A stretch of DNA of 64,000 nucleotides from Dehalococcoidia bacterium (GCA_034421015.1 DAOUKT010000037.1:18133-82132); one strand, 5' to 3'. Shown: positions 58,256 to 59,020, counted from the first letter of the stretch. A program made the numbers and translations. The notes: a model not told the origin generated them from the sequence alone.

Positions 58256-59020
58256 ATGCCCAACTTCAGCGCGCACCTGGGCATGGCGAAGGACGCCGCC
58301 TCACGGCTGGACCACCCGACTCTGAACAACAACATGGGGGCCTATCTGCTGGGGTCGGTGTCCCCGGACATACGCATCATCACCCGGGGAAAGCGGGATG
58401 TCACTCACTTTGTCCCGCTGGACTTCGAGAAGGTTGGGGACGGAGTCGAGGGCATGTTCAGCTCGCACCCCAGTCTGTCCCAGGCCGGCAACCTCAACGA
58501 GCCGACCAGGGCGTTCATCGTAGGTTTCGCCAGTCACCTGTTCGCCGACGAGCTGTGGATAATCAACCTGTACCGGCCGTACTTCGGCAACCGGGACGTG
58601 TTCGAGGACAATCTGTTCGGCAACCTGATGGACCGCGCCCTTCAGCTGGAGCTGGACCGGAGGGAGCACCTGGCGATGGGCGGGACGGGGAAGATCAAAC
58701 CCTTCCTGGAGAACGCCGAGAAGGACGTTGAAATCGGCTTCATCTCCGCCGAAACGCTGGTAGAATGGCGGGAATGGGTGCACAACTCCCTGGGTGGGGA
58801 GTTCAACTGGGACAGGCTTCGGTTCATGGCGGGAAGGGTGGCCCGGCAGGAGGGCGCCGAGTCTGAAGAGCCGGTGAAGGAGATGGCAGAGGAGTTCCTG
58901 AAGTCCGCTGAAGAGGGTTTGGAGCGAATATTCTGCGCGGTGCCCGCGGAGCTGGTGACGGAGTTCAGAGAGAGGAGCATCGAGGACTTGTTGAGCTTTG
59001 CCAGGGGGTACCTGAAGTGA
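58256..59020 (+). CDS. Metal-dependent hydrolase-like protein (Zn-dependent phospholipase C / P1-nuclease-like N-terminal motifs), function unknown
   Basis: MPNFSAHLGMAKDAASRL...YLLGSVSPDIR...VTHF...GFASHLFADELW. The ATG lies 4 nt after the hisG stop, and its stop overlaps the hisD GTG (GTGA). Confidence 0.55.
   Translation: MPNFSAHLGMAKDAASRLDHPTLNNNMGAYLLGSVSPDIRIITRGKRDVTHFVPLDFEKVGDGVEGMFSSHPSLSQAGNLNEPTRAFIVGFASHLFADELWIINLYRPYFGNRDVFEDNLFGNLMDRALQLELDRREHLAMGGTGKIKPFLENAEKDVEIGFISAETLVEWREWVHNSLGGEFNWDRLRFMAGRVARQEGAESEEPVKEMAEEFLKSAEEGLERIFCAVPAELVTEFRERSIEDLLSFARGYLK

What the first reader, a model, noticed from the sequence alone, without database searches (positions are those of the whole stretch)
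58256..59020. Unknown Zn-hydrolase-fold gene translationally coupled inside hisZ-hisG-X-hisD: candidate for the missing histidinol-phosphate phosphatase
- **Operon context:** the operon here encodes HisZ, HisG, HisD, HisC and a monofunctional HisB. HisB is the IGP dehydratase only and has no HAD phosphatase domain.
- **Missing step:** none of the three known histidinol-phosphatase types is present in the cluster (HisB-N HAD, PHP-type HisJ/K, IMPase-type HisN).
- **Tight coupling:** the 254-aa ORF is wedged between hisG and hisD. Its ATG lies 4 nt after the hisG stop, and its stop overlaps the hisD start as GTGA.
- **Fold hint:** its N-terminal motifs are SAHLGMA, GSVSPD, VTHF and GFASHLFADE. 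They resemble the Zn-dependent phospholipase C / P1-nuclease-like fold, whose chemistry is phosphoester hydrolysis.
- **Inference:** this could be a fourth, undescribed type of HolPase.
Basis: inference. Interest (0 to 1): 0.65.

Follow-up and report, generated by a model that had tools for sequence, protein, structure and literature searches.

The report
Candidate new histidinol-phosphate phosphatase family
An uncharacterised 254-residue protein is always encoded beside histidine-biosynthesis genes in Dehalococcoidia/SAR202 bacteria, at the spot where the one missing pathway enzyme (histidinol-phosphate phosphatase) would be expected, which makes it a strong but untested candidate for a new type of that enzyme.

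Summary
ORF X (58256..59020, +, 254 aa) is a real gene (GC3 0.85). It starts 3 nt after the hisG stop and its TGA overlaps the hisD GTG (GTGA). The operon is hisZ-like, hisG, X, hisD, hisC and a monofunctional hisB.

X belongs to a Chloroflexota-only family (371 GTDB species genomes, about 230 full-length members seen here). Every member whose flanks could be read lies beside his genes:
- 80 of 80 GTDB loci, down to 42% identity, have hisZ-hisG-X-hisD-hisC-hisB.
- About two thirds to four fifths of loci keep the 4-nt X-stop/hisD-start overlap, while the hisG-X gap varies from -25 to +199 nt.
- One lineage has only X-hisC, with no hisG or hisD within 10 kb.

A sister subfamily is not his-linked.

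H7, D38, R47, H51, H94 and D98 are near-invariant. The N-terminal half passes Pfam PF00882 (Zn-dependent PLC) marginally. The confident AlphaFold model has no significant PDB neighbour, so the PLC-like fold is only weakly supported.

The best reading is a new, non-homologous histidinol-phosphate phosphatase (confidence about 0.55). I could not test whether the genomes lack known HolPases or carry hisE, and there is no biochemistry. No paper in the library describes this family.

The parts
55990..56018 (+). Promoter-like site upstream of the operon (TTGAAT-17-TACAAT)
   Evidence: Consensus scan. This is a weak match. No terminator-like site was found anywhere in 55500-63000.
55990..57285 (+). 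hisZ-like gene, a HisS paralogue. Public gene calls start it at 56053.
   Evidence: Pfam tRNA-synt_His. The best NCBIfam model is TIGR00443 hisZ, at 216.5 bits, below its cut-off of 271.65.
57176..58252 (+). hisG, ATP phosphoribosyltransferase, long form with the HisG_C domain. The start codon is uncertain.
   Evidence: PF01634 and PF08029; TIGR00070 at 177 bits. The TIGR00070 match begins at residue 28 of this ORF, so the 274-aa public gene call looks too short.
58244..58247 (+). GGAG Shine-Dalgarno of X, lying inside the end of hisG
   Evidence: Read directly from the sequence, 8 nt before the ATG.
58256..59020 (+). X: 254-aa all-alpha protein, the candidate histidinol-phosphate phosphatase. 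Near-invariant residues are H7, D38, R47, H51, H94, D98, D126, R127 and Q130. The N-terminus is an invariant Met-Pro.
59017..60345 (+). hisD, histidinol dehydrogenase. Its GTG start overlaps the X stop (GTGA).
   Evidence: PF00815 at 501 bits; TIGR00069. The overlap is conserved in most related loci.
60831..62057 (+). hisC, histidinol-phosphate aminotransferase. Public gene calls start it at about 60963.
   Evidence: TIGR01141 at 318.5 bits, above its cut-off of 276.55.
62073..62672 (+). hisB, monofunctional imidazoleglycerol-phosphate dehydratase with no phosphatase domain
   Evidence: PF00475 covers residues 33-176 of 199. NF002116 scores 273.9 bits, above its cut-off of 269.

Best explanation
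X is a cytoplasmic metal-dependent phosphoesterase that carries out the one step missing from this operon: hydrolysis of L-histidinol phosphate (made by HisC) to L-histidinol (used by HisD). It would be a histidinol-phosphate phosphatase (EC 3.1.3.15) from a protein family unrelated to the HAD, PHP and IMPase types.

**Proposed mechanism (inferred, not shown)**
- His7, Asp38, His51, His94 and Asp98 form a one- or two-metal centre like the Zn1/Zn3 pair of Zn-dependent phospholipase C and P1 nuclease. The free N-terminus may contribute, because the Met-Pro start would expose Pro2 after methionine removal.
- A metal-bound water or hydroxide attacks the phosphate monoester.
- Arg47 and the subfamily-specific Asp126, Arg127 and Gln130 (with Asp134) hold the phosphate and the amino/imidazole part of the substrate.
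- X is co-translated with HisD through the overlapping stop and start codons.

**Shown here:** gene reality, family conservation, strict his linkage, coupling to hisD, the X-hisC pair, and a marginal Pfam PF00882 match.

**Inferred:** metal binding, substrate and reaction.
For: 1. **Operon content.** The operon encodes step 1 (hisZ/hisG) and late steps 6, 7 and 9/10 (hisB, hisC, hisD), but no step 8. HisB is monofunctional.
2. **Synteny.** 80 of 80 GTDB loci, at 42-91% identity to X, have hisZ-hisG-X-hisD-hisC-hisB.
3. **Distant members.**
   - hisG-X-hisD: L088, L089, L093, L095.
   - The full operon: L092, L094.
   - hisG-X: L097.
   -.
4. **Broken operon.** In the P0218/P0281 lineage (15 cluster members) X stays with hisC alone. 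The hisC passes the TIGR01141 cut-off at 327 bits. No hisG or hisD lies within 10 kb. Seen on two contigs, L090 and L091.
5. **Coupling.**
   - A start codon overlaps the X stop by 4 nt in most of the roughly 79 loci scored.
   - The hisG-X distance varies from -25 to +199 nt.
   - So the conserved coupling is to the enzyme that consumes histidinol.
6. **Specificity of the linkage.** The sister subfamily (about 25-30% identity) keeps the His/Asp core but has H-N-x-x-R in place of D126-R127-x-x-Q130. It sits next to a NERD-domain gene and glycosyltransferases, not his genes.
7. **Conserved residues.** H7, D38, R47, H51, H94, D98, D126, R127 and Q130 are identical in 200-207 of 207 members.
8. 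**Family match.** Residues 7-98 match Pfam PF00882 above its gathering score. H7 falls on the same profile position as Zn ligand His14 of B. cereus PLC (PLC sequence verified against 1AH7).
9. **No known HolPase or hisE nearby.**
   - There is no PHP, IMPase or HAD domain in the operon, in 20 window ORFs or in the annotated flanks.
   - E. coli HisB-N and HisI/E queries find no hit in the 86 loci held at that point or in the window.
   -.
10. **Literature.**
    - HolPase is the histidine-pathway step most often replaced by unrelated enzymes.
    - It is the commonest unexplained gap in prototrophs, at 20% of 208 genomes (10.1101/2024.10.14.618325; PMC9798254; PMC5516325).
Against: - There is no biochemical or genetic test.
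- I could not check whether X-carrying genomes encode a PHP-, IMPase- or HAD-type HolPase elsewhere. PHP and IMPase HolPases are often unlinked to his genes.
- I could not check whether those genomes have hisE.
- The link to a phosphoesterase superfamily is weak.
  - The Pfam score is only 2 bits above threshold and covers half the model.
  - The positions that would carry the third Zn site (His128, His142, Glu146 of PLC) are not matched.
  - hhalign and hmmsearch against PLC are not significant.
  - Foldseek finds no PDB neighbour. The best E-values are 0.067 for the full-length model and 3.9 for the N-terminal model.
- The tools return no model coordinates, so clustering of the conserved His/Asp residues in space was not verified.
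- Gene order alone cannot tell a pathway enzyme from an accessory factor.
Confidence: 0.55

Rival explanations
1. X is a non-orthologous phosphoribosyl-ATP pyrophosphohydrolase, a HisE analogue. It would act on the product of HisG, whose gene lies immediately upstream.
For: - X directly follows hisG in nearly all loci.
- hisI/E is the second most common unexplained histidine gap, at 9% of prototrophs (10.1101/2024.10.14.618325).
- An unrelated HisE replacement, DVU1186, was found through its role and position (PMC5764234).
- No HisE- or HisI-like sequence occurs in the window or in any fetched locus.
- Phosphoanhydride cleavage is plausible chemistry for a metal-dependent phosphoesterase.
Against: - The hisG-X spacing is variable (-25 to +199 nt), while the X-hisD overlap is conserved.
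- In the P0281 lineage X is separated from hisG and stays with hisC.
- hisH, hisA and hisF are also absent from all loci. Steps 2-5 therefore appear to be encoded together elsewhere, which is where hisIE normally sits.
- X would be the only early-step enzyme, apart from hisG, in a late-step operon.
Confidence: 0.12
2. X is not a pathway enzyme. It would be an accessory partner of the late his enzymes, for example a metal-delivery or assembly factor for Zn-dependent HisD, or a regulatory subunit. It would be co-translated with HisD for stoichiometry.
For: - The 4-nt stop/start overlap with hisD is the most conserved feature of the locus.
- The conserved His/Asp residues could simply bind a metal.
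- There is no significant structural similarity to any known hydrolase.
Against: - The X-hisC pair without hisD nearby argues against a HisD-specific factor.
- Known Zn chaperones are GTPases of an unrelated family (my own knowledge, not tested here).
- The pattern of strictly invariant polar residues (H, D, R, Q) on several helices is more typical of an active site.
- This reading leaves step 8 unexplained.
Confidence: 0.13
3. X is a general phosphoesterase or lipid phospholipase C-like enzyme whose position in the his operon is historical, with no role in histidine synthesis.
For: - The only database family it matches is Zn-dependent phospholipase C.
- The sister subfamily sits in a cell-envelope or nuclease-type context.
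Against: - The linkage persists across lineages with 25-100% identity and through at least three operon rearrangements.
- Translational coupling is conserved.
- X has no signal peptide and none of the C-terminal half of the PLC model. True PLCs and P1 nucleases are secreted and use a processed N-terminal Trp (sequence inspection and my own knowledge).
Confidence: 0.07

Closest known systems
Zn-dependent phospholipase C (Pfam PF00882; B. cereus PC-PLC 1AH7, C. perfringens alpha-toxin N-domain) and the related S1/P1 nucleases
   Same: - Both are all-alpha proteins of about 250 residues.
- The N-terminal half of X matches the PF00882 profile above threshold.
- X has a similar sequence of motifs (my manual reading; only the first pairing is fixed by profile coordinates):
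  - H7 in SAHL against NSHL (H14)
  - PD38 against AAD55
  - TH51F against SH69F
  - H94xxxD98 against H118xxxD122
- The exact N-terminus is strictly conserved. In PLC and P1 nuclease the N-terminal residue is a Zn ligand.
- P1/S1 nucleases also have phosphomonoesterase (3'-nucleotidase) activity (my own knowledge).
   Different: - The second half of the profile is not matched, so there is no counterpart of His128, His142 or Glu146 (the third Zn site).
- hhalign and hmmsearch against PLC are not significant.
- Foldseek finds no match to any PLC or P1 structure.
- X is cytoplasmic and starts Met-Pro rather than with a processed Trp.
- X is his-linked, not a toxin or a nutrient-scavenging enzyme.
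Known histidinol-phosphate phosphatases: HisB-N (HAD), HisJ/HisK (PHP), HisN (IMPase-like), and the phosphoserine-phosphatase-like HAD HolPases of Burkholderia and Pseudomonas
   Same: - The proposed reaction and pathway position are the same.
- X lies inside a his operon, like HisB-N and many hisJ/hisN genes.
- It would follow the same evolutionary pattern of non-orthologous replacement at this step (PMC9798254, PMC5516325, PMC5764234, PMC12220765).
   Different: - X matches none of these families in Pfam or NCBIfam.
- Its predicted fold is all-alpha, unlike the alpha/beta HAD, TIM-barrel-like PHP or IMPase sandwich folds (fold classes from my own knowledge).
- Its activity is unproven.
DVU1186-type phosphoribosyl-ATP diphosphatase (Price et al. 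2018, PMC5764234)
   Same: It is a precedent for an unrelated protein filling a phosphate-handling gap in histidine synthesis, recognised from genetics and gene position.
   Different: - It belongs to a different family and catalyses a different step.
- It has experimental support (auxotrophy rescued by histidine), which X lacks.

Membership tests
Zn-dependent phospholipase C family (Pfam PF00882) | Profile match at or above Pfam's gathering score | tested here: met
   - X scores 28.9 bits against a cut-off of 26.8. Only residues 7-98 match, to profile positions 2-93 of 167.
- Among eight relatives scanned, five score at or above the cut-off (26.9-37.9 bits) and three fall below it (26.4, 24.0 and 12.8 bits).
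- Most database homologues carry a precomputed PF00882 hit.
Zn-dependent phospholipase C / P1 nuclease superfamily | Full trinuclear Zn site (in B. cereus PLC: Trp1, His14, Asp55, His69, His118, Asp122, His128, His142, Glu146) | tested here: not met
   - The profile half that carries His128, His142 and Glu146 is not matched.
- X has Leu/Asn around the position 6 residues after D98.
- At most five counterparts exist (H7, D38, H51, H94, D98). They are near-invariant.
- Only H7 = His14 is fixed by profile coordinates.
Zn-dependent phospholipase C / P1 nuclease superfamily | Three-dimensional similarity to solved PLC or P1 nuclease structures | tested here: not met
   - Foldseek against the PDB with the full-length model (pLDDT 91.6) gave a best E-value of 0.067 and TM-scores of 0.20 or less. 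No PLC or P1 entry was in the 50 rows shown.
- The N-terminal 142-residue model (pLDDT 84.9) gave a best E-value of 3.9 and no PLC or P1 entry among all 16 hits.
Zn-dependent phospholipase C / P1 nuclease superfamily | Clustered metal-binding site in the structure | not testable with these tools
   The structure tool returns no coordinates. Only secondary structure is available: H94 and D98 lie one turn apart on helix 82-110, and D126, Q130 and D134 lie on one face of helix 119-140.
HAD-type HolPase (HisB N-terminal domain) | HAD domain or HisB-N homology | tested here: not met
   - X has no HAD family hit in Pfam or NCBIfam.
- tblastn with E. coli HisB-N finds nothing in the window or in the 86 loci held at that point.
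- HisB here is 199 aa and contains only the IGPD domain.
PHP-type HolPase (HisJ/HisK) | PHP domain | tested here: not met
   No PHP hit for X, and none in the annotated flanks or in the tested window ORFs.
IMPase-type HolPase (HisN) | Inositol monophosphatase fold and HisN motifs | tested here: not met
   No IMPase hit for X, and none in the annotated flanks or in the tested window ORFs.
HisE (PRA-PH, MazG-like) | PRA-PH domain homology | tested here: not met
   No Pfam or NCBIfam hit. E. coli HisE finds no tblastn hit in any locus.
Histidinol-phosphate phosphatase (functional class, EC 3.1.3.15) | Conserved genomic association with his genes, especially hisC and hisD | tested here: met
Histidinol-phosphate phosphatase (functional class, EC 3.1.3.15) | No other HolPase in the same genomes; anti-correlation with the known types | not testable with these tools
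- The only indirect hint is that IMPase-type HisN is reported for class Chloroflexia (PMC5516325), while all named X carriers here are Dehalococcoidia, SAR202 or unclassified Chloroflexota.
Histidinol-phosphate phosphatase (functional class, EC 3.1.3.15) | Hydrolysis of L-histidinol phosphate; complementation of HolPase mutants | not testable with these tools
   This needs an experiment.

The most novel reading that the evidence does not exclude
X founds a fourth superfamily of histidinol-phosphate phosphatases. It would be an all-alpha metalloenzyme with no solved structural relative, only remotely related to Zn-dependent phospholipase C and P1 nuclease. It would use a reduced His/Asp metal centre and possibly its free N-terminal proline. 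It would fill the HolPase gap in Dehalococcoidia and SAR202, some of the most abundant uncultured bacteria of the deep ocean and subsurface.
Probability: 0.5. Interest if true: 0.75.

Novelty: new variant of a known kind. Interest (0 to 1): 0.62.

Why it matters
- **An open gap.** Histidinol-phosphate phosphatase is the only histidine-pathway step that evolved several times from unrelated folds. It is still the commonest unexplained gap in amino-acid biosynthesis: missing in 20% of 208 prototrophs in GapMind 2026 and low-confidence in 28% of 148 in GapMind 2020.
- **Consequence of the gap.** Such gaps cause false predictions of histidine auxotrophy and cross-feeding in metagenome-assembled genomes.
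- **What confirmation would change.**
  - It would correct the metabolic reconstructions of at least 371 Chloroflexota species.
  - It would add a new catalytic scaffold for phosphomonoester hydrolysis.
  - It would provide a clean HMM for annotation pipelines.
- **Testability.** The hypothesis can be tested directly with one synthetic gene, standard complementation strains and a phosphate-release assay.

Tried and rejected
1. **Structural confirmation of the PLC/P1 fold.**
   - I ran two AlphaFold models (full length and residues 1-142) and two Foldseek searches against the PDB.
   - Neither search gave a significant hit, and the rows shown (top 50 of 218, and all 16) contained no PLC or P1 entry.
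   - Coordinates are not returned, so metal-site geometry could not be inspected.
2. **Sequence bridging to solved structures.**
   - The profile of alignment A1 against PDB sequences gave nothing below E = 0.18.
   - hhalign of A1 against B. cereus PLC gave nothing.
   - An HMM of the family plus its sister subfamily against PLC was not significant. Its weak local alignment does place H94 on His118.
   - A second PDB search meant to collect diverse PLC sequences returned only point mutants.
3. **Apparent HisG_C-X fusion protein P0044.** Reading the sequence shows an out-of-frame junction, so it is a frameshift or assembly artefact, not a Rosetta-stone fusion.
4. **Search for hisH, hisA, hisF, hisI, hisE and HisB-N near X.** E. 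coli queries found none in the window or in the 86 loci held at that point. The presence of hisE therefore could not be settled.
5. **Genome-wide search for known HolPases in X-carrying genomes.** This was not possible.
6. **Regulatory RNA upstream or inside the operon.** Rfam found no match at E of 0.1 or less in 53000-64000.
7. **Literature.** No paper in the held library links PF00882 or this family to histidine synthesis.

Full report
**1. The observation**

- The ORF at 58256..59020 (+) is present exactly as described: 254 aa with an ATG start.
- hisG ends with TAG at 58250-58252. Three bases (ACG) follow, then the X ATG at 58256. A GGAG lies 8 nt upstream of the ATG.
- The X stop TGA (59018-59020) overlaps a GTG at 59017 that opens the 442-aa hisD ORF. 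Some public gene calls use an ATG 15 nt further on, but comparative data (section 3) favour the overlapping start.
- Codon-position GC is 0.60/0.39/0.85, like the flanking genes in this 62% GC window.
  - a HisS paralogue in the hisZ position (its best NCBIfam model is hisZ, but below the cut-off);
  - hisG with a HisG_C domain;
  - hisD;
  - hisC, which passes the TIGR01141 cut-off;
  - a 199-aa hisB that is IGP dehydratase only.
- A promoter-like site precedes hisZ, and no terminator-like site occurs in 55500-63000. No Rfam element is present.

**2. What X is at the sequence and structure level**

- Pfam gives one hit, PF00882 (Zn-dependent phospholipase C): 28.9 bits against a gathering score of 26.8. 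Only residues 7-98 match, to profile positions 2-93 of 167.
- NCBIfam has no model for X.
- B. cereus PLC matches the same profile with residues 13-192 on positions 1-165. I verified its sequence as identical to PDB 1AH7. X His7 and the PLC Zn ligand His14 therefore fall on the same profile position.
- The remaining correspondences are my manual reading of the motifs: D38 to D55, H51 to H69, H94 to H118, D98 to D122. A non-significant local HMM alignment does place H94 on H118.
- Neither hhalign nor a PDB profile search links the family to any solved structure.
- AlphaFold gives a confident all-alpha model: pLDDT 91.6, pTM 0.91, 15 helices.
- Foldseek finds no significant PDB neighbour for the full-length model (best E = 0.067, TM-scores of 0.20 or less). 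It finds none for a separate model of residues 1-142 either.
- X is therefore at most a far outlier of the PLC/P1-nuclease superfamily. It keeps candidates for five of the nine Zn ligands and lacks the part of the family that carries the third Zn site.
- Among 207 full-length members of the subfamily, H7, D38, R47, H51, G90, H94, D98, F110, D126, R127 and Q130 are identical in 200-207.
- Every orthologue starts exactly at Met-Pro. In four species the start position is a CTG, preceded by a good Shine-Dalgarno. In L061 there is no alternative in-frame start. The exact N-terminus therefore appears to be under selection. In PLC and P1 nuclease the N-terminal residue is a metal ligand (my own knowledge).

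**3. Distribution and genomic context**

- The family has at least 353 clusters at 90% identity and 540 clusters at 50% identity with E of 0.001 or less.
- Relatives were found in 371 GTDB species genomes.
- Every named source is a Dehalococcoidia, SAR202 or Chloroflexota metagenome-assembled genome.
- In all 80 loci retrieved (42-91% identity) the order is hisZ-hisG-X-hisD-hisC-hisB. Names that seem to be missing from that table are artefacts of my overlap filter.
- More distant members of the same subfamily (motif D-R-x-x-Q) are still his-linked:
  - hisG-X-hisD in L088 and L089;
  - the full operon in L092 and L094;
  - hisZ-hisG-X-hisD followed by unrelated genes in L093 and L095;
  - hisG-X in L097.
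- In the low-GC lineage of P0218/P0281, X and hisC form an isolated pair.
  - The cluster has 15 members.
  - The pair is seen on two contigs, L090 and L091.
  - No hisG, hisD, hisB or hisZ lies within 10 kb.
  - The hisC passes TIGR01141 at 327 bits.
- Across roughly 79 scorable loci, most have a start codon overlapping the X stop by 4 nt. My hand count from the table is about 66, which I did not recount by script. The distance from the hisG stop to the X start ranges from -25 to +199 nt.
- A sister subfamily (N-terminus MPTPF, motif H-N-x-L-R instead of D-R-A-L-Q) keeps the His/Asp core. It lies next to a NERD-domain gene and glycosyltransferase genes, not his genes.

**4. Interpretation**

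- The operon holds step 1 and steps 6, 7 and 9/10 of histidine synthesis. Only step 8, histidinol-phosphate phosphatase, is missing from that run.
- hisH, hisA, hisF, hisI and hisE were not found in any locus or in the window, so steps 2-5 are evidently encoded elsewhere.
- X is the only unassigned gene, and its partners fit step 8:
  - it is translationally coupled to the enzyme that uses histidinol;
  - where the operon has broken up, it stays with the enzyme that makes histidinol phosphate.
- Its conserved His/Asp/Arg residues and its marginal PF00882 membership fit a metal-dependent phosphoesterase.
- I therefore rate a new, non-homologous HolPase as the best explanation (about 0.55).
- The rivals are:
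  - **HisE analogue (about 0.12).** Favoured by the position after hisG. Disfavoured by the variable hisG-X spacing and by the X-hisC pair.
  - **Non-catalytic partner of HisD or a metal-delivery factor (about 0.13).** Favoured by the conserved coupling and by the lack of any hydrolase-like structural neighbour. Disfavoured by the X-hisC pair.
  - **Unrelated phosphoesterase carried along by history (about 0.07).** Disfavoured by linkage that survives deep divergence and three rearrangements.

**5. What is not established**

- I could not test whether X-carrying genomes lack PHP-, IMPase- or HAD-type HolPases, or whether they carry hisE.
- Within reach, none of these domains occurs in the operon, in 20 mid-sized ORFs of the window, or in the Pfam-annotated 10-kb flanks of six diverse loci.
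- Spatial clustering of the putative ligands could not be checked because no coordinates are returned.
- There is no biochemistry.

**6. Novelty**

- The literature held here recognises three HolPase superfamilies: HAD, PHP and IMPase (PMC9798254, PMC5516325). HAD includes a phosphoserine-phosphatase-like branch (PMC5764234, PMC12220765).
- HolPase is reported as the commonest unexplained gap in prototrophs (10.1101/2024.10.14.618325; PMC7311316).
- No paper found links PF00882 or this family to histidine synthesis.
- Public annotations call it 'hypothetical protein' or 'zinc dependent phospholipase C family protein'.
- If confirmed, X would be a new analogous enzyme type for a known reaction, confined as far as seen to Chloroflexota.

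Noticed in passing
window 55990-58252: A hisZ-like HisS paralogue sits directly upstream of a hisG that carries the C-terminal regulatory domain (PF08029). As far as I know, HisZ normally partners the short form of HisG, which lacks this domain, so having both is unusual. 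In addition, the 274-aa public gene call for hisG starts after the beginning of the TIGR00070 match, so the true start probably overlaps hisZ.
   Followed up: partly
L092 8645-10000; L094 8605-9999; L095 1045-2460: In some distant Chloroflexota the hisG upstream of X is 451-471 aa. For L092 and L094 my Pfam scan shows two HisG catalytic-domain stretches and no HisG_C, an apparent tandem duplication. L095 rests on the precomputed Pfam annotation only.
   Followed up: partly
window 60438-60824 and 53245-53598: Two small ORFs resemble the 'archaeal' PaREP1 family (PF05942). One lies between hisD and hisC and scores 24.2 bits against a cut-off of 24.4. The other, upstream of the alcohol dehydrogenase, is supported only by the precomputed annotation. 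The hisD-hisC spacer varies from about 10 nt to about 2 kb among related loci, so it looks like an insertion hot spot.
   Followed up: partly
L045, L050, L061, L077 position 10001: The start position of the X orthologue is CTG instead of ATG, GTG or TTG. A GGAG lies about 9-10 nt upstream. In L061 there is an in-frame stop 36 nt upstream and no alternative start, so this is probably CTG initiation that preserves the exact Met-Pro-Asn N-terminus.
   Followed up: yes
L085 4253-5886 (protein P0250 and its downstream gene): The sister subfamily of X (MPTPF...HNVLR) is stop/start-coupled to a 295-aa NERD (nuclease-related domain) protein. It lies near a CDP-alcohol phosphatidyltransferase and glycosyltransferases. 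Its function is unknown and it is not his-linked.
   Followed up: partly
protein P0044 (355 aa): This database entry looks like a HisG_C-X fusion, but the junction is out of frame. It is an assembly or frameshift artefact, and several other odd-length family members in the representative search probably are too.
   Followed up: yes
window 62691-63947 (-): The operon ends at hisB and is followed by a convergent poly(A) polymerase/CCA-adding enzyme gene. hisH, hisA, hisF, hisI and hisE are not within the 64-kb window or within 10 kb of X in any related locus, so the pathway is split into at least two loci in this whole group.
   Followed up: partly
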